Part shown: one piece after another, positions 22,801 to 64,000 of the stretch | Numbering within the stretch: the first letter of the stretch is position 1 | Layout: each line of letters begins with the position of its first letter | Source of the DNA: Nageia nagi | Lineage: Eukaryota; Plantae; Pinophyta | Reading direction: 5' to 3' | Assembly (NCBI GenBank): GCA_050084985.1 | Contig: JBITNC010000001.1 | Coordinates: 183,892,001 to 183,956,000 of the forward strand | Length of the DNA stretch: 64,000 bases | Program-made: the position numbers and the translations under genes | The notes under the pieces: model-generated | Databases searched by the model: none | Told to the model about the DNA's origin: nothing | What the model saw: the letters and a program-made list of their open reading frames with translations, nothing else

Positions 22801-25800
22801 CGCTACAACATTACAATTCCAACAAGTAATATTGATTTTGTCATTGCATATTGAGACTCAAGAACACCATCATTTTGACGACCAAGTGCATGCCCACCAT
22901 GAAGGGGTGAATCACTTATCATTGCTCAACTATTTTGAACCACAACCCATTTATTTATTTTCCTTGCAACCATAATATAAGCACGAGCTTTATGAAGCTC
23001 ATCCATTTGAAGGCTCGTGAGATCTTCATCAAAGTATATTTTCTCTAGAAGAGAAAATAGTGTCTGTTTGGCTTTCAAAGCCTATAAAATCTCCTCTAAA
23101 TTCATAATCGAAGAACTAAAGTGTCATCAGGAATGGTCAAAGCTTTTTCCAATGATAAGCTTCTCAAGTCTAAAACATCATGTAAAATAGTGTGACCAAC
23201 CTGTAATGGTGTGATGGTTTCAAGGAGGTCACAAACTCGAAGATTGAGTTCTTTGGTGTGGAGTAATTTCTCCTCTTCAAATTTAGCTTGTATTGCCATT
23301 TTGACAAGAGGATTCCTCTTACCTTTAACCATTTGTAACCATGAATTGTTTTCTTCTACTTTATTTTAAATAGACTATTGTTGGGTTGTTTCATGTTTAT
23401 GTTCTTGTTGTTGTTGTTGTTACGCAATGATTACTTAGTGCTTCTCTTGGATATCCGAGAATGTCTTGTGCAGTTGTTGGAGCTACTGGGAAGGGATTAT
23501 GTTAGCAAGGGGGGTCTAAGGTATCTCTAATTTGTCCAATTTGTCATTCACTTCAAAATGAGTATGTCTTTCTCATTCAATTGTTGTTGAAGATGAGAAA
23601 CCAATTCCTGGAATTTGTCCCTTTTGTGCTCCAACTAGGTGATGCGGGTAGACAATTTACTAGTGGACTTTTGGGTCTCTTGGATTTTGGTGTCTTGAAG
23701 GTGGACATTGGATTCATTATCTCGATTATATTATGAGATTGTCTTGGATTTTGGTGTCTTGAAGGTGGACATTGGATTCATTATCTCGATTATATTATGA
23801 GATTGATCAACAGCCTTTGTGTTGTTAATTTCTATGACAAACTATGTACTTAGATGTTCCATCTGTGTCATCAATTGTGCTATGTCTTACTGGAGGTTGG
23901 GTTAACTAGGGCTAAGTGAACAATAGTTTTGAAGCACTAATGTCTGAAAAAATGAATCAAGGATGCCCAAGAAGGAGAAATGAGTTCAAGGAAACCTATG
24001 ATTGAAGGAGAAGATCTAATGTTTAGAAAACCAATAAAGGATCCATAGACAAAAATCAAGGATTTATAGGAGCACGAAAACAAGACCCAAATAGAGCAAT
24101 TGAACAATCCTACGAAGTTGGTGATGGGTCAGCAGATCAAAAGCAAGGTACCAAGGCACCATGGGGCAAGGCACAAATGCATGCAGGAGTTTCTTATGGA
24201 GAGAGTGAATTGGTGATTGGGATCAAACAAGAATAGGTGCAACAGTTGCATGATAAACGACACCCGACATAGCACACGGGCGTTGGACATGGAGCTACGC
24301 AAGAACACGAGTGGAGCTACACAGGCAAAAGCGTTGGTGGGGAGCAATTTCCATAGCACTATTGAAACAATTGCCATGTGAAACTAAGGTGGTATCTCCT
24401 AGACAGGAATGAAAAATGTGCTCAAACAGAAAGAAAAAAAAACACCACATGAAACAATTGAATGGATTGCCATGAGCGTCGATCCATAGACAAAATACTT
24501 TTGCAATGAAAAGATCTCACTAAAGGGGGCACATGCGAGGAGCTTAAGCACAATAGCATGAGGCTAAGGTGTGGAGGTGCAGGGGCCTAGAAACCTTCAC
24601 ACGAAGAGGACGTTGTTTGACTGGCTTTTCCACGCAGTGAGACAAGGCATAAAAGAGTTATGGGAACTTTGATGTTTCTCACTGTCACTACACCAAATAA
24701 TGCCTATGTTGTTTCACTTGTTTCAAGATATATTATGATTAAACCATCTAAAATTCATTTGAAGGTTGCTAAGATAAACTTGAGGTATGTGAAAACTGAA
24801 AAGTATTATTGATTTTGGTATTCATTATTATTCAGTTAAAGTGGAGTTTGTTGGTTATAGTGATTGTGATTGGTAAGGTAGTTTGGATGATTGAAAATTC
24901 ACTCCAGCAATTGTTTGACTCTTGGTTGAAGATTGATCACTTAGAGCTCAAAGAAGCACAATCAATTGCTCTTTCTTCTACAGAAGCTAAGTACATTGCA
25001 ATAACTTTAGCGAGTGCACAAGCCTACTGGCATAGGAAGATATTGGAAAAAAAGTGAGGATTGATATCATCCCAATATTATCTTTTGTGACAACATGAGT
25101 GCAATTCAATTGCCCAAGAACCCTGTTTTTGTAGGAGGTCTAACCATTTTAATTTGAAGTATCAATTTATCAAGGATGTGATTCAAAAACAAGAAATTGA
25201 AATTAATCAAGTCTATTAGTACTCGAGATCAGCTTATTGATGCATTCGCAAAAGGTGTTACTAAAACATAGTTCTAGAAGCATAGAGACAATCTTGTGAG
25301 CCTCTTAACATCAAGTGGGAGAATGTTGAAATGATGATGTTGATTAGTGTTCAAAATAGCACGGGTACTAGCCAGAAAACTGCAGGTAATCACAAGTCTA
25401 GCCTTTCCAGAGTAACCGATAGGGAAAACTCAACATTCCTGAGTATTGGCGCTTAATCAACGAGTAACCATCCTGTAAACCTGCAGGCACCTTGAAAGTA
25501 ACCGGCAAGCGATCGGATAGAGGCTGAAATCACGATTTTTAAGACAGTTTCTCCCTATTTCATTCCTAGTTTGGTCTTTTTCTCCATTTTGCTCACTATT
25601 TTTGCTCTCTAGGTCAATTTTTGAAGGATTCGAAGCTTCAACATCAATCTCAAGAGCTTCACTGTGGATTTCAAGCATTTCACTATAGATTTCTCAAGAG
25701 TTTGTGATCCAGTTGTGAGTTTTTTAATTCTCGTCGTGCATTTGAAGAGGTAGGGTTTTTGGCTTTTTTTTTTTTTAATTTCACCATGGAATTTTTTTTC

Positions 25801-28800
25801 CTTTGTATGTTAATGTTAATGCCTATATTTGAAAAGGGTATTCTTCTTTTTTGCATATTTTGTGATTTTTTTTTTAATTAGGGTTAGGGTTTTATAAGGT
25901 TTTTGATGGGAATTATACTTTTTTTCACTTTCCAGATGGCAACTGAAGATGATTTCCTTTCAAATGCACCTCCTCCTCAAGCACCACGTCAGATATTGCT
26001 TGGAAGTATGGCACAAATGGTACTCTTCCAAACCAAATGATTTGCAATTTTTGCAAAAGACCTTACAAGGGTGGTATCAATAGATTAAAATACCATCTTA
26101 CAAGGATACCAGGTAAAGATGTAGCACTTTGTACTATTGCACCTCTCGACGTTATACGCAAGATGCAAGCCTTACTTGCCATAGCCTCACAAAAGAAGGT
26201 AGAAAAGCAAAAGATCAAGATGGCAATTGGTGCAAGGATTGGGGGGAACATGAGCTTTGAAGATTCAGTATCAAATTCTTTCTTTGGCCAAAATCCATGT
26301 TCACAGTCAAATGAAGATTCAACACTTCCAGGTTCAGTAAAGCATCAAAGAATGGAAGGTTTCTTTGTTCCTCATATAGAAGCACAACCTTCCTTTGAAA
26401 CTACATCATGGGGAAAAAATAAAATCCAAGCAGCCCGAAGAGCAGCTGCAAATTTTTGGTACTATTGCAAGTCCTTATTGGGTGGCCATGGTGAATGCAT
26501 TCATCAATGTTGGAAGAGGGATGAAGGCCCCTACCGCAAAGGATTTCAGTGGTCCTTTGCTTGAGGATGCAGTTGTTACCACACTTGCCATAGTAGATGA
26601 GCAAAGAAAGAATTGGCGCAAACATGGATGCACTATAATGTCAAATGGATCGATAGATACGAAGAACCATACACTACTCAACTTCATGGTGGCATCAAGT
26701 AGATCAATGGTCTTCTTGAAGTCAGTTGATGCATCCGATAAAATAAAATATGCATCGTTGATTTTTAAATTGCTTGAGGAAGTGGTGTTGGAAGTGGATG
26801 TGGAAAATGTTTTCCAAGTTGTGACAGGGAATGCTTCAACATATGTTTCTACAAGTCAAATGCTTGGGAGGAAGTATAAAACCTTATTTTGGAGCCCATG
26901 CACAGCCCATGTGATTGACCTTATGCTAGAGAACATGGGCAAGCTCTCATGGATTACAACTGTGGTTGAAGAAGCAAAAATAATTATCAAATTCATCTAC
27001 AACCACATTTAGGTGCTTAGTTTGATGAGAGAGCACACAAATGGCAAGGACATCATTCGTCCAGGTATCACTAGATTTGCCTCCAATTTTCTTGCATTAC
27101 AAAGCCTCTTTGAAGTAGAAGCTCCTTTTAAGAGGATACTTATTAGTGATAAATGAAGGGAGTCTTCTTTTTGTCATAATAATGATGGGGAGAAGGTCCA
27201 AAAGATAGTGTTTTATGACTTGTTTTGGAAGGGCATTGACAAGGTCTTGAAGGTAATTTAAATTCTTTCTTTTATGTTTTTTTTTTTCAATTTTTAGTCT
27301 GTAACTTTGTAAGTTTGTAGTTTGTATTTTTCTTTATTTAAATCTAAATTTATTTTTTTAATGATTTCTAAGTTACACAAACTTGGATCAAGGTTCTTCG
27401 TCTTGTAGATGGTGATTTGATATCGATGGGCTATCTGTATGAGGCCATGGATAGGGAAAATGGGGTTGTCCAACGTATGTATAAAAGAAACACAAATAAA
27501 TTGAATGCCCTTGAAAGTATCATTGATAGGAGATGGACCCATCATCTCCATCAACCTCTACATGCAACGGGGTACTACTTGAACCCTATGTTTTTCTATG
27601 CTGATAGTTTTGAGGCTGATAATGAGGTTATGGATGGCCTCTATACTTACATTGAGAGGATGATCCCTGATGATAGCATCAAGGCTTTTGTTCCAGATGA
27701 GATGCACGCCTACAAGAGGGCCGATGGAAGGGTTCTTTCTTCAGTTATTTCTAAAATGTTGAGGAACACCTTGCGACCAAGTAATAATCTAAAATCAATA
27801 AAATTATAAATGTGTTGTCTTTTTACTATTTTATAAAAGCTAGATTGAGTTTCTGAAAATGTAATTTCTTTTTCACAGATTGTTGGTGGGAAGATAATGG
27901 TGCTCAATGTCCGAATCTTCAAAGGATGGCAATGAGGATATTGACTCAACCTTTTAGTGCTTGTGGGTGTGAGCACAAGTGGTCCATGTTTGAGAGCGTT
28001 CACACAAAGAAACGCAACAGGTTGAAACAGCAACGCGTGAATGACCTTGTGTTCATCCAATACAATCATCTTCATGTCAAACAAGTGGAGGGCATAGATT
28101 GCTATGATGCCATTGACCTTGATTCTATGTATCCACTACTAGATTGGGTTGCTGAAGATGTGGAATCCATCTTCACCGAGGAGGACATCGGGCAACTTGA
28201 AAGGGAAGCAACAGGTGAAGGTACATCTAGTGCAGCAGTTGCAATTTATATGGAGCTTGAGGATGAGGACGAGGATGAGTACATACCTAAGGCTGAGCAT
28301 CTTGTTGGGGACGAGGATGTGCCAATGCCACATCCTTCGCCACCACGTGTTGTGAGGAGCGAGTCGAGGACATATAAGAGGATTGGGACGAGGGGAAAGA
28401 GGCCATTGCACTAATTGCCGCACTAATAATTTAGAACTTTAGAGTTAGACATTTAGAGTCTAGACTCAGTTTTTATTCCAGTAGTCTTTAGACTTTACTA
28501 TTTAGAAGTTTAGAACTACTTTACTTATGAGTTATGAGTTTATGACTATATACATTTTTGTATTTATTATTTTTATGATCATTAATAGTCACAAATAATC
28601 AATGATCATTATAACTCTCTAATTCCATATTTAAATATGTTTTTGTATTTTTTTTCATAAAATGTTCGTGTTTTTTTTTTTTTTTGCTGAGTTTTGGTAT
28701 CGAGTTTTTGCTGAGTACTCTCCAAATTTTTCCTGGTTGAGTAATTCCCGAGTCCGAGTATTCCAACCTTGATGTCGATGAAGAAAAGACAAATTTCAAA

Positions 28801-31800
28801 TCCTCTTCTAGCCAAACTCTTATTCTATCTTGCACTAGTGTCAACCTGATTCCTCACTCTTAAACTATGGTTTTTTCTAGTTCTGTATCAGATGACAAAA
28901 GGCTTAGGTCAAAAAAAAGGAATCAATTATGGGCAGTCTAATAAAACAAAAATTCCTAAAACCAAAAGTAATGATCATCTACAGTTGTTTGATGACCTAC
29001 TTGTCATATATTTTCTTTGTTATGATAGTTAAATGGAAAATGTAAGATCATTCCCAGCCTCTATAATAGGATAGTATCTAGTAGAGCATCAATTAGTTTT
29101 CTATGTGGAGCACGTTTTTCATTTGGTTTGAGTAACAATTAATGGAAGGAAGCTCCTGATACTCTATGCTGTGTTAAAACTCTGATGTGTATGCTTTGAG
29201 TTTTTTAAATATACTGTTTTGTGAAGGTGTAAATGAGTAATATTGTTTTTAGAAGAAAAATGTCCGTACTTTAATTATTGATGTGAATAATTTTCAATGT
29301 ATTTATATTTTTTAGTTTGCCACTCACTACATTCAGAGGCTGATGCTTCCAAAGGTGTTCCCCTTCTGGAAACTGCACCCTACTCATGTCCAATTTTCTC
29401 CAACTTGGGTTCAAAAGCTACATTTTCTCAGAGATATCTTTCTTGAACAGTGCATAGACAATTCAGTGCAGTAAGAAAGATAAAAGGATAAAAGGGTTAA
29501 AAGAAATTACTTGCGTGACGTAATTTTTGCATGGCAATAGATGGTTCGAAAATTCATTCTATAATGAGATATATGGTGCTCGCATACCATGGTTGGCTTC
29601 CTTAAGCGTGTTTACAAACATAACAATGCAATAGTATTCAACTTATATTTCATAATTTACAAAATTCTTTGAGACTGCAGAAATAAAAACATTGTACAAT
29701 TTAAGCATAATGATTCAGGGATAACTGAACTTTCTTCTTAAATTGCAAGAACAAACTATAATACTTGACTTTTACTTTTCAAAAACCTTGGGATTCTCTC
29801 CAAGTACTTCCTGGATCTGCTCACATACAAATAATTAAATAAAGTAAGTCTGCAAGACTAGCTTTCAAGTCAGCAAGTAGACTATTGTTGTTGAAGATGC
29901 ACTATTTGTGTAACAAAGAAAAATTTGGCCATGGTTGAGGAGGTGGTTGTTGACATCATGGCCAGCCTGACTGCAAGTATAAGTGCTCGTTTAATTAAAA
30001 ATCAGCACATATCACTTGTGACAAGAAAATAAGTCATTTTGGCTTTGAAGGCTCAAGGAGAGATTTGCACATGTAGAGTAAAGGTCGAGATGGTTAAGGA
30101 TGAAGTAGAGATGGTTGAGGATGGAAGCTGGCTCACTCGAACAATTTTAGACTACACAAGAGGAGGAAAGTGGACTATGTTGATAAAACAAGCAGGATGA
30201 ATTAGAGATGGTTGAGGATGAAATGAAAAGATAAATATACGCTTGTTGAATCTAAATAGAGATGGTTGAGGATGAAATGAAAAGATAAATATACACTTGT
30301 TGAACCTAAAATAAGCAACCAATCAGCAATGACAGGCTGTACCAATAGAAAGAGGCCTTCTCAATTCACCAAGGAAGGAAGGATCCATCTGGAAAGGTAT
30401 CGAAACAAGTATGAAACCATTTCGATCACAGATGGGCAAGACAACTGAAGTTATTACATGACAAGTTCTGGTATACATTCAGAGGTCACATATGACTGGC
30501 GCTGAAAATTCTCTGGGTAGTGAAAACACTGCAAAGATTGCATAAAAGATTTGAAAACGAAATGGATTTTAAGGGAAACAACTTAAGTTCTTGATGTAAT
30601 TTGTAATTTCAAACAAGAAAAAGGATAAAGAAAAATCTCTTGTGAAGAAAATGGATAGCAAGGTCACTGAGAATCTTTAAAGGGATTGTTCTTCCAAGAA
30701 CTTTTGTTGATGAACAAGAACAAGATGGTAATCCAAACTATGTACAGAACCAAGAGTCGAGCCAGCAGCTTAGAGTACAAGGATCAAACAGAATAAATGA
30801 GATTCCCTACTTGGGATGATGACATTCAGCAAGCCATAATTAGAGTCACTAATAAAAATATGGCAAATTGATGTAGGAGATGATAGAGGTAATGAAAGAA
30901 GATAAGATGAAGCAATCAGGGGTAGGAATACCAAACTCACGTAGATTGTTTGGATTATAATTGCAAGTACTCTTAAAACAACAAGTATATGCCAACTGGG
31001 ATATGACGAACTAGAAAAGGGGTAGAGATGACAGTAGGGTGTTTAACACAGTCAAATGCTATAGGTGTAGAAATGGAGACATGACAGAAGACATTGTTTA
31101 AATCAAGAATCACGGATGCTGGCCAAAGGTGCGCTCTTAGGATTGAAGATAGCTACTCACCTCACAAGAAAGTTTTGCAAATAAAGAGAATGGGGCATTT
31201 GCAGTACACACTAGAAACAAAACAAGAAACGTTACATATTCCAAACCCATATCTGAAAAGGAAGTGCGAGATATTATTACAAAGTGACAGGGACAAGATA
31301 AAGGAATGAAGAAGTTAAACGTACAAACATCAGAAAGAAAGAAAATGAAATTACACCCCCATATTAACACCGGTGAAGTACTGGGATAAAAAATCAGAAA
31401 TGTACAACCAACTGAAATCAAGTTTTGCCGATGAAGAGACTCCTACTAAAGTAATTATGTCATTTCAGACATGGCACAGTACTTAGAAATACAGCAATAT
31501 ATTTTGTTCCACAGATAACTACTTTTACTAGATGGCAATGGGCAACAGGGCACAAGATAAATAATGTATGCAGTCTATGGACATCTTCTCACAGAATGTT
31601 GTCAACAAATAAAATAAGTCATGACAAGGCCTGGACTATCACCGACTGAAAGAAATTGAAAGAGGCCTCTATAGACAATAACTCACACCAACGAAGTAAA
31701 TGTATAGACCTAAAAGGAACTGTTATAAACAAAAATTCAAGTGTAAACTTCGTAAGTTGTGAGAAAAATTGGGTATACCAACCCTGTAGCCATTATATCT

Positions 31801-40800: not shown

Positions 40801-43800
40801 TTCTTTCCCTAGTACTCTGGACAACATGCTAATCATCCTGTCAACAATGGGGAAAAAGTTGGTGTGTTTAGCATTGATGAGAGCATTGCCCTTTAATTAG
40901 TGATGTTCTTCAAACATCCAATCCTTGATCATGGTTGCCGACTTGTTGGTGGCTTGGTAAAGGGCTAGTGATTCTGCTTTGTTGTATTCATAGTCTCCCT
41001 CACCTGACCACTGAAATGCACTCTTCATTGCTTTTGGGCTAAAATCCATAATGACTTCTCCTTTAGTGTCTTGAAGCACCCTCTCACCAATCTTCCAATG
41101 TTGACTTACTTCTACGCACAACTCAAGGAATGGGACTGCAAAGAGAATGGTAGCAGCTGTCATAAGGCTAGAGAAAAACAGGATGTCTCGCTTCAAAACC
41201 TTGGGGTCTATCTTCTTGATTTTCTCCCTCACTTTGAACGGATCAATGTTTTGCCAATCTGTGTCCCCAATGATGACGAATCCATTTTTGTTGAACTTGG
41301 CCCCTTGACATAAGGCTTCTTCCCTCACGCACATTTATATGAAGCTATCCCTCCTTAGTAGTTCCAACTCCTTTGCATACTCCTTGGCTGCATCACTTCT
41401 TGAAGCTACCATTTTGACGGTGTGCGAATGACTAGATCTCTCCTAGACTCCCCTCACAAGCTTAGATTGTAGAAGACTTCGAAATGATACCCTAATTCCC
41501 TTTAGACCTCCCATGCAAGCTTGAATGGATGACAACTTCGAAATGATGCGCTAATTTTCACCTCTTTTTCTCCTTGGCACAAATGTTGAAGAGGAGAATG
41601 ATTTGCATTTGAAAAATGAGCTCAAACTTCTCCTTATAGCTAAAGTTAGGTTTCCCATAACCCTAGTCAGCTAGGTTTTACAAAAATGGAAAAAAATAAT
41701 CCAAGCCCTTTGATCTAGCTAACCTCGAGATGCATGCTCACCCAAAATTTAAAAATTTTGCACCTGGGATTTTGGCGCAAGGGTGATGGAGGTCTTCTGG
41801 GTTGGCACATGACCAAAAAAGACAAAATCTTGTCTTTTTTTGTCATGCGCCAAGCTTGAGGGCTATCTAGAATCCGGCGCAAGTCTCTTTGGCTATCAAA
41901 TTTGTTTTCTTGACCCTTGCGCTGACCTCTATGGCTATGGTTCTTTGTAAATTCATCTTCCCTTAGGCCCATGTTGCTCAAAATTTCACTTTGCAAGCTT
42001 CCTGGGCACCCTTTTAGAGAGTTGAATTATAAACTAAATAACTTTAAACACCCAAGATCACATGAAAGCTCACAAATAACATCTAAATAACTTACAAAGC
42101 AATCTAACAAAAAAAACTCAAGATGTAAGTGGTTCCTCCAACGAGGAGTACATCCACTAACTAGATCTCACTTCTTAACAAATATGAACTCTTAAAATCC
42201 TCCTAAACTTTTCTCCTAAACACTATCCTATAGCATAGCTTTACTCCACAAATTGGTGTGTGATAACAAAGAGTGAGCATTCTATCCAAAATCCTTCTTT
42301 GGATCACCCTTTTACCAAATGTACAAAGGCATGACATGCACTTCCTTTTACCCAAAAGGCATGCTCATGGCATGGAGTGTAGGACAAGTTAAACTATCAT
42401 ATTCACTTAAATACTTAAGGTATCTAATGATACCATTAAGTATTAGTGAATTTACAAAGAGGATTAATACAAACCTTTACAATAATGCATTATACATTCC
42501 AACACTCCCCCTTAATGCAATATTGGGATAGAGCGAATAAGAGAGAAGAAAGAGAGAAAGTAAGAGAGTTCTCCTCCAAATAGATACAACAAAAATGAGA
42601 ACTTTTTACATATTTGTGAAGTAAGAAAGATCTAGTTTGAGACTCACTACTTTGCCAAATACAATCATTAACTATAACTGGTTTCAATGTATATGAAGTA
42701 GTCATCCAACTGGAAGTCATGAAGAGTCTCCAAGAGCTTGCACACCGAAAATAATTAACCTGCAATCTCAAGATAACCTGCAAGTTATAAGCAGCTCAAA
42801 TAACAAGATCAGTTAGATGCAACATATTCATATCAACTAGGATAGATGAATCACACAAATGCCATCATGAACTGATCAATGGTGCTTTATAAGTCATCAC
42901 GAAGATGCCAAGCCAAAACTCATAGTCACCTGCTGTATATAAAACATGTGTTGATTGTCATTACAAAATAAAGCATGCAAATACGAGTTCCTCACATATG
43001 GATAACTGAACAGTGCCAAAAGACACATAAGAGTTCTTCACACATGGATAACTGAACAATGCTAGATTGGCCAATTTTTTTGCTTTAAAAATTTGTACAA
43101 GTTCTTCACACGGAGTGAACTTCCCACGAAGGTGTACAACAAAATCAACACTATACAGCACAACATCCTCCTAGGGGTGAAGTTGTCATCACAAATATGA
43201 ATTCAAAACTAGAATTCAAACTTCACTCCCCTTTGAGGGCAACTTCCCCAACCCGATAGCATCCTTAAGCTTACAGAATTGAGCTTTCAAGAGGGGTTTG
43301 GTGAACAAATCAGCAGAGTTCAAAGTAGATGGACAATCCTCCAGGTGTATGATGCCATCAAGAACCTTTTCCCTGATAAAATGGGCATGGATTTCCACAT
43401 GCTTTGTTCTCTGATGGAACACAAGATTCTTAGCCAGAGAAATAGCCTACTAATTGTCTGAAGAAATCAAAAATGAGCTACCTTGCTCATATCCAATTTC
43501 TTTCAAAAAATGCCTGAGCCAAATAGCTTCCTAGGCTGCAACAGACATGGCATGGTATTCGGCTTCTGTGGTGGAAAGAGAAATAGTAGGTTGCTTCTTG
43601 GAAGCCCATGAGATAGCACCTGAACCAATGCTAAACACATATGCAGAGGTTGATTTCCTGTTATCTCTATCTCCCCCATAGTCAGAATCTGAGAATCTAG
43701 AGAGAACAAACGAGGGCAATTTAGAATACTTGAGAGTAAGATCCTTAGTCCCTGCAACATACCTCAAGATTTGCTTCACAGCATTGAAGTGTTCAACATA

Positions 43801-46800
43801 TGGTTTCTGCATGAATTGTGCCATCAGATTCACTGCAAAGGCAATATCTGACCTGGAAATAGTCAAATACAGAAGACTACCAATTAATTACCTGAAAGCT
43901 GTAGCATCAACCAACTGAGAGTTGAAGCTCAAAGAAACAGTGATTCCAGGAGAAACTGGGATTGCAGTATATCTACACTCCTCCATTCCAAACTTCTGCA
44001 AAATGTCTGACATATACTTAGATTGACTAAGATAAGTACAATCCTTGTATTGATACACTTGCATTCCAAGATAGTAGTGCAAGAGACCAAGATCAATCAT
44101 TTCAAACATTGCCTTAAGTTTGGATATGCACTCTTGAATGATTTCATCATTGTTCCCAGTAATCAAAAGATCATCCACATAAAGGAGAATCAAGACCACC
44201 TCTTTTTCTTGAGTGAGCACATATAAATCGGAGTCTGAAAAGCACTTGGAGAAACCAATGTCTTTTTTTCCATGCGCCAGGCTTGCCGGTCTCTCCAATT
44301 TGGGCGCATGCCAAGAAAAGTCATCATCTTGTCTTTTGGAGTGATGCACCAACCTTCTCTTGCCCAATTTGACTTGATTTTGAGGTTTTGAGTGCATCAC
44401 TTAGCCATTTTTGCCTTTGCATCAATTTGGACCTCTCATTAAGCTTGGCGCATGCCAGAAAAAATCACAATTTTGTCTTTTGAGCCCATGCGTTAGACTT
44501 GTTTGCCCGCTTGAACTTGGAACGTCAAAAAGTCACAATCTTGTCCTTGTGAGCCATGTGTTGGGTTGCCTAGGTGGACTTGAGTGCAATTTGATGTTTT
44601 CTCATGTGCCTTAGCCAAAATTTTCACTGAAATGTTTTCTTTCTAGCTCAAAACCCCAGCACAAGCTTCCTAGATGCCTTACTTCACCAAATTTCGCCAT
44701 GACCTCAACTTGTGCTCTTTTTGCTGACTGATGCATGCCTCAAAAAGACACAATTCTATCTTTTGGAGTGATGCACTGGGTCCCTAGGAGACCCAGTTTG
44801 ATTCTTCACCCTTCGAACTCCGCCATGATGGTCCTTCTAGTCTGGCACATGCCAAAAAAAGACACAATCTTGTTTTTTTTCCTCGTGCTCCAACTTCCTA
44901 GTGACTAGCCCTTGGTTGATTTGATCTCAAACTTGTCCCAAAAGGCTCTCCTCTCAGCGCATGCCAAAAAAAGACATATTCATGACTTTTGGAGTCATGC
45001 GATGGCCTCTTGGAGGCTTCTTTCCACCTTGTTTTGTTTCGAATGTCACCTGGGTTCCCTATTTTCACCTAACTCAACCTTCCAATTTTCAGACTTAAAC
45101 AAATTTGGACTTAGAATACCTTGGATAGGTCTCAATGAGGCATGACTCTTAGCTCACAACAGGATGATGAACATAACATCCAGGTAGACGAACTTCTAGG
45201 TTTAACATGATGATATTTGGACAAAGCGTTCAAGTCCCCACGATTTTTAGGTGTGTTGTGTTAGTCATAGCACTTTACTTTCTTTACATCAGCCAATTCA
45301 ACTTAATTCCAGTTGTTTCCACATCAGATTGGTTATGCATGCTAATTGATATATTACGCTAACAAGTGTTCATGCTGAAATAATATTAGTTGCAATTTTC
45401 ATATATTCTCCCTTCTTGATTCTTGTCAATGCATCAATCCAAGTCATACCTAAGTATCCAGATTGTTTACAATGTAATTTACTTTTTCCATTCTATTCAG
45501 TGGCTTTAATGGCTCCCAAATCTTGAGTATCACATTATTGCTCATCTTAGAAAGCTTTCCATTGTCTCAAATTTGTCTTTCCTCTGTGAACAGTTATTCT
45601 AACATGCATAAAAATCAATTTAGGTAACGATTGGTTGATGCTAGTGTTAACCAAAGTTCCAGATGATAAGCCACACTTACTAGCATGGACAATTTTGGTA
45701 GCAACCCTTTTGATGCCAAGGATCCTCCAAAAATGCTTCCATTGCAAAGCCTTTCCAAAATTGTTTTGGAAGCAAGGACTTATTACACAAATACCTTGCA
45801 ACATCCAACACCTCCAAAGCAATCTTATTATGCTGATGTCTGCAACATGCCTTTTTCAAACATTCATGACCATTTGCATTCTTCCCAATTTTCTTCTAAT
45901 CTAGGCTTTCATTGAGTTGGGTTTAAAGCCACTGGTGATCTTCATCAATTCCTAAAAATGTTCGGGACTTCCTTGATATCTGAGGTCAGTTTGGGCAACA
46001 CAAGCAGTCCAAGTGCAAATTTCAGAGGCTAAGCGAATGGAAACAAGTGGCTAGAAACAGTTAATTATCACTCACCACTGTTACTGACGGTCTATAATTC
46101 TTCCTTTCATGTTTATACAGAACATCACTGTTGCAACTTCTCTAAAAGTACAAAAAATCCCCTTTTTTTCTCTGCTCATAACATCCATCTCAGGCATGCA
46201 AGGATATTCTTGCCTCCATATTCTAACATTCCTGTCTGTTATGATCTGTCAAGGTGGGACCAGTATGTTGCCTTCTGGCATTCTACCTCTCTTAGTTTTT
46301 CATCTTCCATCACCACATTGTTGATATGTATGTATTTACACTCAAATGATGTTAGTATCATCGTCCTTTTATAATGTTTTGCTTTTCCAAAGACACTTCT
46401 ATGATGTGGTTTTGTGCATTTCATCAAATCGAATCCCAACATTTCTTAACATATTTCCTTCACCTCACTAGGCATTATTTACTCTTTTCTTCAGATTAAA
46501 CTCTAACCTTTACCCAGACTATCAATGCAGTTCCTCTTCTTGTTGAAAAACTCCTACCCATTTAGTATACTGGTCCTTCTAACATGTCTTTGTAGTTTTA
46601 TGAGCTATTCCAAACTTCTTTTCTCACTCTTCTCCATTTAATACTTCATCTTTCTTCAACAATAAAAATTCAACTGCATCTACAGATCACTTTTTGTAAT
46701 CCTTCACTTTGAAATTATCAATGTCATGTTGGTCTTACTTCACCAGTAAAAAGTTAGTTACAACTACTCAATACAGACTTCTTTGCATGTTGTATTGTCC

Positions 46801-49800
46801 TTGACTTCAATTTCTTTATTTCACATCTTTCTTTTTCTGCATCATAGCTTTAGTCTCAGTGAGTCTTCAAAAGACTTTCCAAGTCTGAAACTGAGTCAGC
46901 TGACTAGATTCTCAAGTCTTTGGAAAGACTCCTCAAAGTTTTGCAAGTCTGACAAGTTTAGCAAGCTCGACGAGTCTAAAACCTAATTTCAACAAGTCTA
47001 TATCGGTCATAAAACCTAAGGAAGAAAACATAAACACTATTGAAAAAACTACATCTCCATGCAGTTTTAATTAACTTTTTCAGCCACCCTCTATAATGCT
47101 CATTTGGTTAATGCCGTATGCTTATGATGCGAATATATTGACTAATATAGAAGAACAAAAAAGCATTTTTTGCGAAAATGTGTTAAAGCATACAATTTTG
47201 CAACTGTCAAGTTCTTGCTCCAAGTCTGAATTAAAGTCAAAAATGGGCCTGCCTAGTCCAATCTCCATGCAATGGCCTTTATTGTTTTATTTCAGCCTTC
47301 CCTTTCTTTTATATTTGCAATCCAATTTGGTTATGGTTGCTTCAGTGGTGTCAAGCTTTTGATCTTTTTTCTCTGCTCTTCAGGGCCTCCTTTGGGTTTT
47401 CTTTAGTGCATATGCAGATGGACAAGCGAGTTCCCTTCCATCATCTAGAGCCCCTCAACCACTTTTCTCGAATCTGACTTCAACATTTTTTCTTCTATTG
47501 GTGAGCACGATCACATATACTTGAGGCCCAATGCTCAGTAGTAAGCATTTTGGGTGAAAATTGAACTAACATGCATGATCTATTAAATTCTGAATCAAAG
47601 TGGGTACAAAACAGAAGGAATTTAAAATAATATTTGATGGTATCTTTCAAACAAAATTATCCTGGGAATTTCCTATGCTAAGCATCCACATTCATCTCCC
47701 CAAGATCCCCACCTTTAGATTTAATCAGACACAATGGATGGTATACTAAACTAATCATAATAAGGCTGCTTCTCAATAGCGTTATTGTGTGGTCTTTTGT
47801 GTATGACCTTTCCATGAATCTTAAACCTTCACGCATCATTCTCTAAACAGCTTCCAATCTTCATCTCCAGCTATTGCTTGATCATTTGCAAGATATTTTT
47901 CAAGTATGTTTTGTAATTGCTTGCATTGGCAAACTCTCCAGACAAAGAAATCAAGAAGGGCATCAATGTTGAGCAGTTTTATATGAGATCACTTTTCAAC
48001 AAATTAAATTTGAACCCTTGTTTCTTCATCTGTCACAATAAACAAGAAGAGCAAGTATGACTCTATAGACCCAAAATTGAAACCTACAACAGCGTAGTTT
48101 ATCCACACTCGTACTGTATCTTATATCAAAACTATACCACAACAATATTGTGTATTGTCCCCGTTTTAATTTACTTTGTAATTATTGTTGTTTTTTTTGT
48201 GTTCTAAGTATCTTTGAGCATCATTGAAAGTATTTTAGCATATTATGTGGTTAAAATAAGAGTTTATAAGTGTGTTTTGACAAATTTGAATGTTGATACA
48301 TGGGTTAGTAAAGTTAATTTATGGTATTATGAAGGTTTTGGTGTCAAAAATAAAACTATAGTTTAAGTATTTGATAAAATAACATTTTGTAAGTTATTAT
48401 TATTATTTAATAGGTTTACATATTGTTAAAATCACTTAAGTATTAGAATTTAACATATGCTCAAATAGGTACTTTAAGTTATTTTGAGATATTAAGTCCC
48501 AAACCTTGGATCTTAACAAGATCAAGGGCTAAAAACAAGGGAGCATTTGAATTATGTTATGATAAAGAGATAATTTAATTTCAACCACTTATTTAGATCA
48601 AGCGACAAGATTAGATCTCACTTAGAGTTTTAAGATAAAACGGGAAAATAAGATTTCATTGTGGATGGTGAATTTGAAAAATTGGATTTGGAGAGCTTTG
48701 CTTCAAAGTTTTAGCAATTTTGCTAAAGATTATTCAGAGGTTCCCATTTGGATTCATTCATGTGGAGGCTTGAGGAGTGAAATTCAAAGGCTTTCTACGC
48801 AACTAAGAGGCAGATCTATTCAGGATTTGTATGCAATGCTTAATGATTGAGAATTTAACATTTAAGTAATATATTGAGTTGTGAAGAGGTTCGTTGGAAG
48901 GGTTTGAAGGTTCTATATGAGTTAGAAAGCAAAAAAACAAATCTAGACACACAAATGGTGAAACTTCAAACCTGGGGCTTTACCATTCTATTGTTTAACA
49001 GCTGAACTTCACAAAGTGAGAGACATTGATACATATTTTTGCAAGACAGAGATGCAGTGATGATAGTTCTAATCTAAAATCAAAGATATGCAATTCTAGG
49101 AGCTAAGACGAAGTGGTCTAGGAGAAAGTAATTTAGATCTGAAGGCTAGGATCTCATGTGTGCCCTAACATCACATTCTAAGGTAGCCAAAATCACGTTT
49201 TGAGAGTGTACATCAAGAGATCTGAGGTTCACTTGCACTCTTGAAGTTGTTGTAGTTGTTCATCCATCATTGTAAGATCTGTTTAGTGTTCAATAGACAA
49301 ACTGAGGTTTGTCTAGTCTTTTCTGAAGGTGTTTTTGATTACATAACATTGTAGTTTTTAGGTTTTTGTGAAATATTTGTAGTAGATGTTATTTATACTC
49401 AATGAGAAAACAATTAAAAAAATAAAAAATTAGATCTATTGTTGTTGTGTGTTTTGCATACTTACGTATTTTGTATTTGGTGCACTTCAAGTGGTATACT
49501 TGAAACCAAACCATATACAATGTACACAAACATTTAAAAGCACAACAATAGCAGATTTGATTTTTACTTTATTTTCATATCTTCTCAAATAGCACAAATT
49601 GCAACTACAACAAATACTTCACAATGAACCAAGTACTACAATGTTGTGTAAGCAAAACAAATTTATGATGCTAAATAAACCTCAAAATTGTCTTCAGAAC
49701 ACTAAACACATCTTACAAAGTTGGATGAGCAAATACAGCCTTTTCAAAAATGCAAACGAACCTCTTAGAGCTAGTTTTATAAGCAATAAAGCCAAATGTA

Positions 49801-52800
49801 CCAATTTCCACCATCAAAACAGAATTCTGAAAGTCTTAGACTGTGACGTCTGGGTGCACATGAGGTCTTTGGCCTTCAAAATCTGAGTTATTCACTCCTA
49901 AATCAGATGGATCAGCCCTAAGAGTGCAGATCTCCAACTTCAAGTTCAAAAACTATCACCAATGCAGCCTCTTTCTACATATTTGTATCAAAACAGTCCA
50001 ACGCTCCTCAAGATTTAGAAGTTCAAATGTTAAACGGTGGATTAGTGAAATCCCAAGTTTGATGTTTCACCCTATGAGTTCAGATCTGCAATTTTACTTC
50101 TTAACTCAGCCATGAACCTTCAAATCCTTCCAACGAACCTCTCCATAGCTCAATATATTACTCAAACACTGAATTCTAAATCATTAAGCAGTGCATGCAA
50201 ATCTTGAGTAGATCTACCTTTAAATTGGGTAGAAAGCCTTTGGATTTCACTCATCAAATCTCCACTAAATCCAAATGGGAACCCTTGAATAATCTTTAAC
50301 AGAATTGTTAAAGCTCTAGAGCAAAGCTCTCCAAATCCAATTTTCCAAATTTGCCATCCACAATAAATCTTAAAACTTTAAATGAGATATAATCTTGTCC
50401 TTTGATCTAAATGAATGGCTGAAATTAAATTATTTCTTTATCATAACATAACCTTAATGCTCCCTTGATCTTGTTAAGATCCAAGAGTTAAGACTTAATC
50501 TCTCAAAATAACTTAAAATACCTATTTCAGCACATGCTAAACTTTTATATTTAAATGATTTTAACAATATATGGACCCACTAAATAATAATAATAACTTA
50601 CAAAATGTCACTTTATCAAATGCCTATAATATAACTTTATTTTTTACATCAAAACTCTTCTAATACCATAATTAACTCTACTAACTCATACACCAACATT
50701 CAAATTTGTCAAAACACACTTATAAACCCCTATTTTAACCACAGAATATGCTAAAATATTCTCAATAATACCCAAAGATACTTGGAACACAAAAACAACA
50801 TTATTTACAAAGTAAATTAAAATAAGAACATTACATACTATACCTGTAATATACGTGCATAGATGTTACACAGAATACAATACAACTTTTTTCTCGAAGT
50901 AACAAAATACAGCAAAAGCAAATATCATGAAGGCATAAGTCCCTTGATTCCGACTCCCTCCCACCACTATCAGTAGTGGTACCATAGATTAGTAGCAGTA
51001 CCGGAGCTGATCTATTCCAATGACTTTTGTCTCCCCCTATCATTATTTAAGCTAGTGAATCAGAACGGTCCTATCCATACTCAACCAAAGGGTGGGTTTC
51101 TATACTTGACCTGTACTATATGTGCATGGATGTTACACAGAATACAACTTTGTTCTCGAACTAACAGAATACAGCAAAAGAAAATATAACGAAGACAAAT
51201 GATCAATCAGCAAAACAGTTATGCCCTACAATGAAATGATAGTCACATTTTGGAATCCAATTTTCATGATAATAAGGGTTTCAAACTAGACAAGGTCTTA
51301 TTTCTTTAGAACCCTTTCAGGTCATTTTGATGTCTCAAAGTTCCAGTGCATTATTATCGCAAATAGCTGCTACCTTGATTTTAATAAGCTGGGTTCTCAG
51401 AAGAACCAAATTTCTAAGATGATTGCAATGAAAAAGCAACACATCAACACCATGAAAGACCAAGGACCCAAGGAAGGAGCGTATTGAACAATACAACTTC
51501 TGTCAATTTACAAGCATGCATAATTCCTTGATACCATGTCTGTCCTTGCTCCGTTCAGCTGCAGCACTGTGCCGACGTCCGTATGGATAGGGCACATCTT
51601 TCAGGGCATAAAACTGAGTACGGCATAGATGGCGGACACTCCTATGCGGTACAGACTAATAAGACACTCCATAAACACCTATCCTATCTGTGTTGCATAG
51701 CACTACTTAACGCTTTCCATCGGGTGAAATCCCTACCCTTCACGAAAAATTCATTTGAGTTCGTAGTTGTTGGGATGTCCTATAATAAGAGAGGAGGATT
51801 TCAAGGAACGCCTGAAAACCTACCATACATAAAACATCATCAGAGAGCCTCTGAAACCCTGGTAACCCCTCTGCCTTTCCTCTGCTGAACATAAAGCAAA
51901 CTGAGGGATCCATGGCGACGAGCACTACTCGATTTGACAACCCTTCAAAACCTAGCTTGGTGGTCTCTCACTACATTCATTGTATACAAATCAAAACAAT
52001 ATAATTGTAAACCAAGCATTCGTTAGAAAGCAGAGAGAGCAGAAAGCTAACTCTACTCTACCTGTAAAAGTCAGAGTGTACAATAAACAACAATCCATGC
52101 ATTCATTAATTGATATCCTCCATTTGACGCAAAGGAGCAGATTTGATTTGATATACTTATTAGGAGGTGGGTTTGCCTTCCAAGCCTCAAGATCAGTTCA
52201 TACCGGATTGGCTCACTCGACACATGATTGTACACAGACACTATGTTCTACACCAGAGGTATAAATTTGTTCTAAAAGTCACAAGTTCTCTTGCTTTTGC
52301 AAGGGACCTCATTTATGCTAATAAGCATGCTGGTCAGGCTATAACCCTAAATTTGTACTTTACTCGTATAAAGAGAAATGGGATCTTGAACCTACATTAT
52401 TATCACAGGCATCTCTGAATGAAAATATTTCTCAGAACCCACAATGGCTATCCATAAAACGTTAAACATTAATCCTACTGCAACTGTAACTTAATATATT
52501 GTAGAAATATATTCTTCATTGCCATCAATGCATAAAATTTTATGGGCATCTGTGTGATTCATCAAATTGAAAAAAAAAGCCGAATTTTTCTAGCGTAAAA
52601 TTATATTAAATACCACGCATTGCTTAAAGCTTCTCTGTAAATTCTCCAATGCATTTATGTCCTCGGCGGAGATAAAAGGTTGTCCATCTAAAAAGCCAAA
52701 TATAAGATATTCATCAAAATACTGTAAATAAGCAAAAGCATAACAGAAAATTATTATGAATAGCAAAAAAGACCTGTTTGATCGATTTCAATATAAAGAG

Positions 52801-52990: not shown

Positions 52991-55051
52991 CTAGAACAAC
53001 TAAAAATTGATATCGCAGACGTTGCTAAACACAGAAACCAGGCATTCCCAGATAGTGAAATCAATTTTGAGGATTGTATCTCAAGAGATCTGTCGTTTTT
53101 CTTGGAGCTTGCTGATGTTCAACAGAATTATGCTTCCATCAAGGTATTCCTAAACATGTTTTGAAATAATAACTTCACCTCCCCTACTTGTTCTTTTAAG
53201 AGTGTAAAACAGTTTGTTGGTGCACTGAGTCAAAACGCGAAGAAAAATATAATAAGTTATCGAGTTTTCTAGAATAGAAAAAATTAAAAAACAAAATATC
53301 AAAATATAAGATTGAAACAAAAGTACAAGATGATAATGAACTATTAGACTTATTTCAATATGTTTTTTTTTTTTTTCCGATGAAATTATTTTTGTGAGTC
53401 AAGTTCTTGAAATTAGATTTCGTGTTTGAAGGTTTCTTTTTTATCAAAGTTACATGGGAGTCACATTCAATTTCATCCACGTCAACAGGTCACCCATCGA
53501 TTGGACTTAGTATATCAACATGATGTGAGGGGGGAGAGTTTTGAATTGGGACGTCCCTTTTGCAACTTGAGAGTTTTACATAGGTTTTATTTATAATATG
53601 TGCATTTGGTTTACTCAATTAGGTGGTTTAATCTTATCTTTATTGTTACTTATAAAGATAGATTAAAAATATCTTTATAATAATTTTAATTTTATTATAG
53701 TAATGTTTTAGTAGAAAGTTTTAGTAAAGAGGATAAGCATTTTTTATAAATGAATAAGTATGATAATTTGACATGATCAATTTTAAAATATATTTTATGA
53801 TTAATAGATAATAATAAAGATTATCGTAGATAAATGTGTAGCATGTATAAATGATATTGAAAAGCAAATAATAGAGAAATTGATAAATAAAATGGCAATA
53901 ATGTTATTAAGATCCACAATACAAAGAATACTACATGTATCTCATGAAAAAGAAAAAGGACTAACATGAAAGGAATTATGACAAAAAGTATGATACTTTA
54001 ATGATTCAAAAAGTATGAAGTATGACAAAAAGTTTTGATACTTCAAATTTTAATTCTACATTTATTATAAAAGAGGTGGGATATTTCAAGTTCTTAATTT
54101 ATTTTTTACTATTTACATTTTGAGTTTTTCTATCTTATTGATTTTTCTTGCATTTGAATTATAGATATTAAATTTTGATTCTTGTAATTGAAAAAATATA
54201 AAATTTAGGAATTTAAAATGATTTATTATTTGGAGGAAAATAATAATAACATAAATCTAAATTTTATAAGACAAAGTTGGTTAACCCAAGTTTAGATCAT
54301 GTTTCAAGTATAAATAGTAAGTTCAAGATCATTTCAAATGATCAATTCTTGGGTGATCAAACATCAATCTTCTCGATAGATAAAGATTTGAATTGTTAAT
54401 CTCTTGAAATGCAATACCTCCATGATTATCAATAAGAGAATTTCTTGAAGAAGATATTGCTACCACCTTATGTTGTATCAAAAGATATTTTATGCCTAAA
54501 TTAAGAGTTTTGATTTGAATCAAAGTAAGCAAATTTAGAACCAAAGTCATGAAGTCATCTAATAATCAACACAACTTTCAAACTTGTAAAATTATCAAAG
54601 ATTGGATTACCGTAGGTCCTACATATGATTATAGGATTGTATCATTCTTATTTCCATGATATTTGCTTCTAACTTCAACCTTTAAGCTCATTGTAACCTT
54701 GATTTATTCATTTTAGGTATCAAATAGATGTTTTTGTGTTATTTATTTATTTTTATCCACTAACTTATGGATGGATCTTGACTGTCATTAAGTTTGATCC
54801 CAACCTCCTAAAATTCTAGGATAAGCATTAAAACCCTTTCAAAACCCTAGTTTGTAAGAATCATTTGGGAGAGGTTAGGATGCTTTACTAAGGGGTTTTA
54901 TTCATCCAAATCAAGTACATAAAGTATTATTTTTAACATTTCATGCTGATATATGTTAAATATAAGACTAGTATACATATTTTCTTCAATGTTTGTATAG
55001 ATCTCTTATGTTCCTATGTCTTGAAAGTGCATCATTTTATTATGTGTTTCT

Positions 55052-63689: not shown

Positions 63690-64000
63690 AGATAATTCCT
63701 AATCAACCAAGATCACATGAAAGCTCACAATTACATATAACAAACTCACAAAGCAATCTCACAACATAAGATGTAAATGGTTCCTCCAACTAGGAGTACA
63801 TCCACTAACTATATGTTTACTTCAATCACAAATACAACTCTCTTACAATCCTCCTAATCTCAACTCCTACACTTCTATCCTATAGCATAACTTTAATACA
63901 CAAATTGGTGTATGATCACAAAGAGGGAGCCTTCTATTTATAGGCCAAAATCTCTCTTTTGATTACCTTTTTATCTAATGTACAATAGCATGACATGCAC
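63690..64000 (-). mobile_element. Copia-family LTR (same family as 42023-42504), truncated by window end
   Basis: CCAAGATCACATGAAAGCTCACAA..AGATGTAA.TGGTTCCTCCAAC..GGAGTACATCCACTAACT..GCATGACATGCAC colinear with 42052-42341. Confidence 0.85.

What the first reader, a model, noticed from the sequence alone, without database searches (positions are those of the whole stretch)
48151..50835. Two inverted LTRs fused at their primer-binding site, apparently inserted as one unit
Seen: the 2.7-kb stretch is an imperfect palindrome over its whole length. The arms are 48151-49489 and 49501-50835, with only GGTAT unpaired at the apex (TTCAAGT-GGTAT-ACTTGAA). Both outer ends read TGTA(T/A)TGT inward. The apex reads ..TTCA-AG-TGGTAT, i.e. 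an LTR CA end plus the start of a tRNA-iMet PBS. The flanking 5-mers TATTG and TACTA both derive from TACTG by a single C>T or G>A change. Known: LTR elements have DIRECT LTRs and 5-bp TSDs. Inference: this is a U3..U5-PBS-U5..U3 fold-back whose two ends are both U3 ends. It could come from a fold-back (hairpin) cDNA, or from two cDNAs co-integrated at one site and later collapsed. If identical structures occur elsewhere, it would be a non-coding foldback family built from LTRs.
Basis: partly seen in the sequence, partly recalled or inferred. Interest (0 to 1): 0.8.

Follow-up and report, generated by a model that had tools for sequence, protein, structure and literature searches.

The report
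Two-parent inverted LTR pair, one insertion
A 2.7-kb mirror-image stretch of plant DNA looks like two end-repeats of a jumping gene joined tail to tail at their primer site; its outer halves differ much less than its inner halves, so it likely formed when copies from two different parent elements were joined and pasted in together, probably as a one-off accident, though spread as a family is untested.

Summary
The palindrome is real and the coordinates are exact. The arms are about 79% alike, so this is not an assembly fold-back. New here: divergence has two tiers, with a step at 48915 (95% support 48902-48935). The outer 765 bp show 85 transitions and 20 transversions in 724 columns; the inner 575 bp show 83-111 and 76-78 in about 565. 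C-to-T decay at methylation contexts gives an inner/outer time ratio of 0.7-1.6, against 4.7-5.8 from transversions. The inner halves were therefore already different at insertion. This argues strongly against a one-template hairpin made at this site and against later conversion of the outer arms. Best reading: two LTR molecules with one U3 but different R-U5, joined at primer-site remnants and inserted by integrase through two U3 ends. The 5-bp target duplication is only modestly supported (chance 0.019). No genome, reads or relative could be reached, so LTR family and copy number are untested. The scan noted related inverted-LTR insertions on other DNA (three findings). Verdict: real, probably a one-off; about 25% a self-renewing fold-back family.

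The parts
48146..48150 (.). Left copy of likely 5-bp target-site duplication (TATTG)
   Evidence: 3 of 5 identical to the right 5-mer, both differences transitions at a CHG-type site; chance 0.019
48151..48915 (+). Left arm, outer tier: inferred U3 of LTR A, starts TG
   Evidence: 85 transitions, 20 transversions, 6 gaps in 724 columns against the right outer tier. U3 label inferred.
48867..48874 (+). TATA-like motif kept in both arms, 46-48 nt before the best change point (weak)
   Evidence: one of two conserved TATA-like clusters in the arm alignment; function untested
48916..49489 (+). Left arm, inner tier: inferred R-U5 of parent A, ends TTCA
   Evidence: 83-111 transitions, 76-78 transversions, 10-18 gaps in about 565 columns; homology to the right inner tier is real (score 192, best of 200 shuffles 30)
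49490..49497 (+). 2-nt spacer AG plus first 6 nt of a tRNA-iMet-type primer-binding site (TGGTAT)
   Evidence: Sequence; the longer motif TGGTATCAGAAC follows another LTR at 13695 in this window. tRNA identity is recalled knowledge.
49498..49500 (-). Spacer AG plus only the first primer-site base of the right LTR (reads ACT on +)
   Evidence: Sequence; reading it as the retained terminal tRNA base is inference from recalled HIV-1 biochemistry
49501..50110 (-). Right arm, inner tier: inferred R-U5 of parent B
   Evidence: change point maps to 50111 (support 50091-50125)
50111..50835 (-). Right arm, outer tier: inferred U3, same template as the left one
50836..50840 (.). Right copy of likely target-site duplication (TACTA)

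Best explanation
The 2.7-kb palindrome is likely a single integrase-made insertion of two LTR-sized reverse-transcription products that likely shared one U3 but took their R-U5 from two different parent subfamilies, and it is probably a one-off that could not copy itself again. Proposed steps, all inferred: (1) RNAs of two related subfamilies, about 15-20% apart in R-U5, are copied in one particle, or the two subfamilies already share a U3 through an earlier swap. (2) Two single-LTR duplexes form with the same U3; one keeps 6 nt of primer-site copy, the other 1 nt. (3) Integrase uses the two U3 ends together and makes a 5-bp duplication. (4) The two U5 ends are end-joined without microhomology, before integration or at the break. 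(5) The insert is methylated and decays by C-to-T change along its whole length. Shown: the palindrome, its ends, the apex letters, the two-tier divergence and the similar C-decay in both tiers.
For: Step in divergence at 48915, 0 of 2,000 permutations; no second step within either tier (237 and 289 of 300 permutations reach the observed value). Transversions per site 20/724 against 78/563 (Fisher p 6e-14; 3e-7 or lower under four scoring schemes) and 19/634 against 51/402 with MAFFT and gap-near columns removed (p 3e-9). C-decay columns, outer against inner: CG 6/10 vs 10/17, CHG 12/20 vs 21/44, CHH 67/212 vs 52/148; with MAFFT 6/10 vs 16/22, 12/20 vs 30/49, 67/212 vs 65/152. An inner tier 4.7-5.5 times longer in place is rejected at P<1e-5 with a conservative outer rate. 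The five other repeat pairs in the window have transition/transversion counts of 55/32, 16/27, 5/7, 8/7 and 21/14, like the inner tier and unlike the outer. Both arms stop within 6 nt of the primer-site start. Literature passages: Ty1 integrase inserts non-Ty DNA with TG...CA ends with 5-bp duplications, and primer-site-ended dead-end intermediates accumulate and get joined into composite inserts (PMC2939329); co-packaged Onsen members give recombinant LTRs (PMC5668417); two-parent complex inserts with one duplication exist in cereals, in direct orientation (PMC1950507).
Against: No normal element with this LTR was seen, so the LTR, U3 and R-U5 labels rest on structure alone. Copy number is unknown, so 'one-off' is a prior, not a result; a repeated family would be more likely to turn up in a random window. 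The duplication is 3 of 5. The empty site is unproven: a 100-bp direct repeat (50836-50935 and 51103-51197) begins exactly at the right edge, yet the left flank does not match the DNA upstream of the second copy (235-425 of 500 random segments score as well). With MAFFT the inner tier also has more transitions (77/402 vs 79/634, p 0.004), so an inner tier about 1.5 times older is not excluded. I did not find co-packaging of parents 15-20% apart in the passages read. The join has no microhomology unless a 3-nt loss is assumed.
Confidence: 0.45

Rival explanations
1. A copy of a self-renewing, non-coding fold-back family. A transcript from one U3 promoter runs through both inner arms and the inverted U3. 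With a helper element's enzymes, both U3 ends are rebuilt from one template each cycle, by snap-back or by borrowing the helper's U3, while the inner arms are inherited separately.
For: It predicts the two-tier pattern with a step near the transcription start. A TATA-like motif kept in both arms lies 46-48 nt before the step (weak). Repeated elements are more likely to be sampled.
Against: No second copy in the 64-kb window or in the collections (the 17 loci fetched match only over the pattern or short stretches). These searches have little power for a plant repeat. There is no full primer site and no polypurine tract next to either outer end, so priming needs a helper. The apex keeps 7 of 7 paired bases and an intact TGGTAT, which long free drift would tend to erode (about 0.04 against 0.23 under the best explanation, my estimate). 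Three earlier inverted-LTR findings of this scan showed no spread (unchecked notes).
Confidence: 0.25
2. Two full-length cDNAs from subfamilies that share a U3 were joined at their U5 ends, integrated as one inverted dimer, and each half later collapsed to a solo LTR.
For: The same apex (untidy cDNA right ends) and the same single duplication are expected.
Against: It needs two separate LTR-LTR recombinations. Solo LTRs are scarce in conifers, about 1 per 4-7.5 complete elements (PMC5751070 passages), if the host is one (inferred only). No internal remnant is seen.
Confidence: 0.12
3. A long-TIR DNA transposon or fold-back element, or one 2.7-kb solo LTR whose two ends are long inverted repeats; the primer-site letters at the axis are a relic.
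For: Outer arms near-identical at insertion behave like terminal inverted repeats; TG...CA ends with a 5-bp duplication also fit a solo LTR.
Against: No transposase or other Pfam domain above cut-off in the element. No 8-10-bp duplication (4 of 8, 0 of 9, 5 of 10). A solo-LTR route has no evident way to keep U3 and inverted U5 identical.
Confidence: 0.07
4. Two independent, oppositely oriented insertions with the DNA between them deleted.
For: The inner tiers look like different subfamilies; the duplication is imperfect; flank continuity is unproven.
Against: It needs a chance 5-mer match (0.019), both deletion ends within 6 nt of the primer-site start, and U3 regions that were near-identical anyway.
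Confidence: 0.05
5. A one-template hairpin cDNA inserted long ago, with the outer 765 bp later made alike by gene conversion.
For: The apex looks like a capped hairpin. Conversion between LTRs is frequent in large plant genomes (PMC5751070 abstract).
Against: The inner tier has not lost its CHG sites (10 and 16 seen, 12 and 15 expected). Its C-decay ratio is 0.7-1.6, not 4.7-5.8.
Confidence: 0.04

Closest known systems
Template-switch complex LTR insertions in Triticeae, rice and maize (Sabot and Schulman 2007, PMC1950507; part 1 of 2 read)
   Same: Two parent molecules fused during reverse transcription and inserted as one unit with one 5-bp duplication and highly similar outer LTRs.
   Different: Those carry three LTRs and two internal regions and are described as elements sharing a middle LTR; this has two inverted LTRs, no internal region and two U3-type outer ends.
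Ty1 composite elements and non-Ty fragments inserted by Ty1 integrase (PMC2939329; passages)
   Same: Integrase accepts DNA with TG...CA ends and makes 5-bp duplications; intermediates ending in primer-site sequence become joined into composite inserts.
   Different: Laboratory yeast events with transformed DNA; not an LTR-to-LTR inverted join, and not two subfamilies.
Recombinant LTRs from co-packaged RNAs: Onsen (PMC5668417; passages); soybean LTR swapping (Du et al. 2010; title seen in a reference list, content recalled)
   Same: An LTR can combine parts from two parents.
   Different: There both LTRs of the product are direct repeats around a normal element.
DIRS-1 tyrosine-recombinase retrotransposons (PMC7192593; passages)
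   Same: Inverted, non-identical terminal repeats.
   Different: DIRS has gag, RT and recombinase genes and an internal complementary region that repeats the outer ends; none is found here.
TRIMs such as Helenus (PMC10886601; abstract and outline only)
   Same: Non-coding, helper-dependent, 5-bp duplication in plants.
   Different: TRIMs have two short LTRs with a primer site and polypurine tract between them; here the LTRs are long and inverted, the primer site is cut to 6 nt and no tract is found.

Membership tests
LTR of an LTR retrotransposon (each arm) | Starts TG and ends CA | tested here: met
   both arms start TGTA and end TTCA; lengths 1,339 and 1,335
LTR of an LTR retrotransposon (each arm) | Primer-binding site 1-3 nt after the CA end | tested here: inconclusive
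   AG then TGGTAT on the left (6 nt only), AG then T on the right; chance at the axis about 1e-3
LTR of an LTR retrotransposon (each arm) | Occurs as a direct repeat around gag-pol elsewhere in the genome | not testable with these tools
   No genome, no runs listed, no other copy in the window, no relative in the collections
Ty3/gypsy Tekay-type LTR | RT phylogeny of the parent element | not testable with these tools
   No coding part. The resemblance of the start motif to gymnosperm gypsy LTRs is recalled, from no call.
Canonical LTR retrotransposon, TRIM or LARD (whole unit) | Two LTRs in direct orientation | tested here: not met
   inverted
Canonical LTR retrotransposon, TRIM or LARD (whole unit) | Full primer site and polypurine tract inside | tested here: not met
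   no 12-nt primer-site match with up to 2 mismatches and no purine tract followed by TGT in 48151-50835
Integrase-made insertion | 4-6-bp target-site duplication | tested here: inconclusive
   3 of 5, both differences transitions, chance 0.019; empty site not shown
DIRS | Tyrosine recombinase and RT genes | tested here: not met
   no such Pfam match in the element
DIRS | Internal complementary region repeating the outer ends | tested here: not met
   no strong internal copy of the termini; the best is 17 nt at E 0.22 in one arm
Mutator or Foldback TIR element | 8-10-bp target duplication | tested here: not met
   4 of 8, 0 of 9, 5 of 10
Mobile non-autonomous family | Several dispersed copies with the same structure and different flanks | not testable with these tools
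Known RNA family or tRNA-derived LTR (Helenus) | Rfam or tRNA match in the arms | tested here: not met
   0 Rfam matches at E up to 1 in 47500-51500; 0 tRNA genes in the window

The most novel reading that the evidence does not exclude
This is one copy of a non-coding fold-back retroelement family with two U3 ends and no primer site of its own. Each cycle rebuilds both outer 765-bp arms from one template using a helper's reverse transcriptase and integrase, and the step in divergence marks the transcription start. It would be an LTR parasite shaped like a DNA transposon.
Probability: 0.25. Interest if true: 0.78.

Novelty: new variant of a known kind. Interest (0 to 1): 0.4.

Why it matters
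As a one-off, it is a fossil of reverse transcription gone wrong in a plant. It would show that strong-stop-sized products from parents 15-20% apart can be joined and integrated through two U3 ends, and its divergence step would predict the U3/R border. It is also a route by which retrotransposons create kilobase hairpin loci that can feed RNA silencing against both parents (inference). As a family, it would be a replication mode I did not find in ten full-text searches, which cover open-licence papers only. One genome search would decide between the two.

Tried and rejected
Whole genome: none held. Sequencing runs: none was listed for 47600-51400, which is no evidence, so no reads were laid. 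Pattern scans: apex junction in viral contigs gave 14 loci and in metagenome contigs 0; arm motifs gave 0 and 2 in viral contigs, 1 in metagenome contigs, 0 and 0 in prokaryote genomes; LTR end plus full primer site gave 0 in viral contigs. All 17 loci match the element only over the pattern or short stretches of 37 nt or less, so I treat them as chance. The neighbouring copia RT found no locus in viral contigs. Host clade: two protein searches gave 3 and 40 relatives with no organism names; 'plant' rests on copia and hAT remnants, the primer motif and CG and CHG depletion (0.27 and 0.58 of expected), and 'gymnosperm' is only a guess. Assembly artefact: rejected, since the arms differ at 21% of columns with a methylation-type spectrum. 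Coding capacity: no Pfam match above cut-off in the arms or near flanks (four sub-cut-off hits at E 0.03-0.07 ignored, one inside the right arm). Empty site from the local direct repeat: not shown. The 13209-13688 / 28786-29264 pair was dropped as an in-place clock, because the second copy has no purine tract before it. Four papers were not held, so the retained terminal tRNA base and soybean LTR swapping remain recalled. PMC5371799 and PMC13332604 (passages) added little; PMC7197481 (passages) describes inversion circles from auto-integration, a different product. No supplements were read.
Full report
Observation. The stretch 48151-50835 is an imperfect palindrome. One BLAST self-match spans it (2,799 columns, 73.8% with gaps, E=0), and 1,021 of 1,287 aligned columns are identical. 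Symmetry stops at the TG and CA ends: 33 of 40 ungapped columns match inside, 13 of 40 outside. Each arm is about 1.34 kb, starts TGTA and ends TTCA when read inward. At the axis the left arm is followed by AG and TGGTAT, the right arm by AG and a single T, leaving GGTAT unpaired. The motif CA-N1-3-TGGTAT occurs 7 times in 128,000 strand positions, so its place at the axis is unlikely by chance (about 1e-3, my estimate). The flanking 5-mers agree at 3 of 5 with two transitions; chance is 0.019 for that class and 0.126 for any 3 of 5. No other duplication length from 2 to 12 does better in proportion. An assembly fold-back would give near-identical arms, so that is rejected.

Context. The window is a field of decayed transposons: copia RT at 17.5-18.2 kb and 43.9-44.4 kb, copia integrase pieces at 58.6-59.5 kb, hAT pieces at 26.0-28.4 kb. 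CG and CHG are at 0.27 and 0.58 of expectation. I infer a plant genome; a gymnosperm is my guess and no call shows it (searches gave no names). The element has no Pfam match above cut-off, no Rfam match and no tRNA. No other copy of the arm lies in the window.

The new result. Arm-to-arm divergence has a step. The best change point is 48915 (right arm 50111), 95% support 48902-48935; 0 of 2,000 permutations reach it, and neither tier has a second step. Outer tier: 85 transitions, 20 transversions, 6 gaps in 724 columns. Inner tier: 83 transitions, 78 transversions, 18 gaps in 563 columns by pairwise alignment, or 111, 76 and 10 in 566 by MAFFT. The transversion excess holds under four scoring schemes (p 3e-7 or lower) and after removing 8 columns around each gap (p 3e-9). 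The transition excess depends on the aligner: p 0.06-0.93, p 0.004. Searches included 6 apex bases in the right arm; searches did not.

When did the inner excess arise? I counted columns where one arm has lost a C (or G) against columns where both keep it, by context. Outer against inner: CG 6/10 vs 10/17, CHG 12/20 vs 21/44, CHH 67/212 vs 52/148; by MAFFT 6/10 vs 16/22, 12/20 vs 30/49, 67/212 vs 65/152. The implied time ratio is 0.7-1.6 (0.80-1.55 printed; about 0.7-1.1 from the rates), while transversions imply 4.7-5.8. An inner tier as old in place as transversions suggest is rejected at P<1e-5 even with the lower 95% bound of the outer rate. The inner tiers still hold about the expected number of CHG sites (10 and 16 against 12 and 15). 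A ratio of 1.5 is not excluded. The test assumes similar methylation along the arm. So both tiers have decayed here for a similar time, the outer tiers were near-identical at insertion, and the inner tiers were already about 15-20% apart (K 0.364 minus 0.166). The five other repeat pairs of the window show transition/transversion counts like the inner tier.

Mechanism. A hairpin copied from one template at this site predicts one tier, and later conversion predicts an older C-decay signal inside; both fail. The pattern needs one template for the outer part and two for the inner part. In LTR biology that matches U3 against R-U5, since the minus strand starts at the primer site and copies U5 and R, and the plus strand starts at U3 and runs into the primer site (PMC7197481 passages). 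A TATA-like motif kept in both arms lies 46-48 nt before the step, weak support for the step being near the transcription start. The apex reads as two cDNA right ends: one with 6 nt of primer-site copy and one with 1 nt, the latter as expected if the last tRNA base is retained (recalled from HIV-1; the papers were not held). I therefore favour two single-LTR products with the same U3, joined at their U5 ends and inserted through both U3 ends (0.45). Ty1 integrase inserts DNA with TG...CA ends with 5-bp duplications, and primer-site-ended intermediates join into composite inserts (PMC2939329 passages). Co-packaged Onsen members give recombinant LTRs (PMC5668417 passages). Two-parent inserts with one duplication are described in cereals (PMC1950507, part 1 of 2). 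All steps of this route are inferred.

Rivals. The same two tiers are predicted if the unit is a family whose U3 ends are rebuilt each cycle (0.25). Against this are the lack of a primer site or purine tract and the well-kept apex; for it is the higher chance of sampling a repeat. A full-length inverted dimer that collapsed twice (0.12) needs two recombinations, and solo LTRs are scarce in conifers (PMC5751070 passages). A TIR element or palindromic solo LTR (0.07), two insertions plus a deletion (0.05) and a hairpin plus conversion (0.04) fit worse.

Results against my reading. Flank continuity is not shown. A 100-bp direct repeat starts exactly at the right edge (50836-50935, second copy 51103-51197), and the left flank does not match the DNA before the second copy. 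This could be coincidence or a rearrangement at the edge. No relative was reached: no genome, no runs listed, and eight pattern scans gave 17 loci, all matching only short stretches. These collections are prokaryotic, viral or metagenomic, so the blank says little.

Comparison and novelty. The unit fails the tests for a canonical element, TRIM, DIRS (PMC7192593 passages) and Mutator-type element; each arm passes the end-motif test for an LTR, with the family test not possible. Ten full-text searches (listings read) showed no description of an inverted U3-to-U3 LTR pair fused at the primer site; subscription journals and supplements were not seen. The scan's own notes hold three related inverted insertions on other DNA, each called a probable one-off or without shown spread; I did not check them, and none of the summaries mentions two parents. 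I rate this a new variant of a known kind, aberrant integrase-inserted reverse-transcription products, with interest 0.4, rising to about 0.78 if the apex proves to be repeated.

Noticed in passing
window 50836-50935 and 51103-51197: 100-bp direct repeat, 83% identical, whose first copy begins exactly at the right edge of the palindrome; the left flank does not continue the match. Unexplained.
   Followed up: partly
window 13209-13715 and 28786-29264: LTR-like sequence followed by TGGTATCAGAAC, with copia RT at 17.5-18.2 kb; a 75% similar copy at 28.8 kb has no purine tract before it and may be another family member. hAT remnants (zf-BED, DUF659, dimerisation domain) lie at 25953-28414.
   Followed up: partly
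window 41804-45009: Six copies of a 54-nt, partly self-complementary repeat on both sides of a copia RT remnant (43891-44400, minus strand); some pairs also match in inverted orientation.
   Followed up: no
window 42045-42341 and 63700-64000: Two copies of a 300-bp repeat, 80% identical, with more transversions (27) than transitions (16).
   Followed up: partly
window 53005-53142: Open, exon-like stretch on the + strand ending at a possible GT donor; no Pfam match.
   Followed up: partly
window 23678-23805: Perfect tandem duplication of 64 nt, 100% identical, so recent or an assembly slip.
   Followed up: no
window 48151-48915 and 50111-50835: The outer arms show a higher transition/transversion ratio (4.2) and more CHG loss (12 of 20) than the LTR-like pair at 13 and 28 kb (1.7; 7 of 27), which may reflect heavier methylation of the inverted repeat.
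   Followed up: partly
window 43891-44400: The copia RT has relatives at up to 91% identity among 40 hits from public metagenome contigs, the longest 21 kb, so related plant DNA exists in those collections.
   Followed up: no
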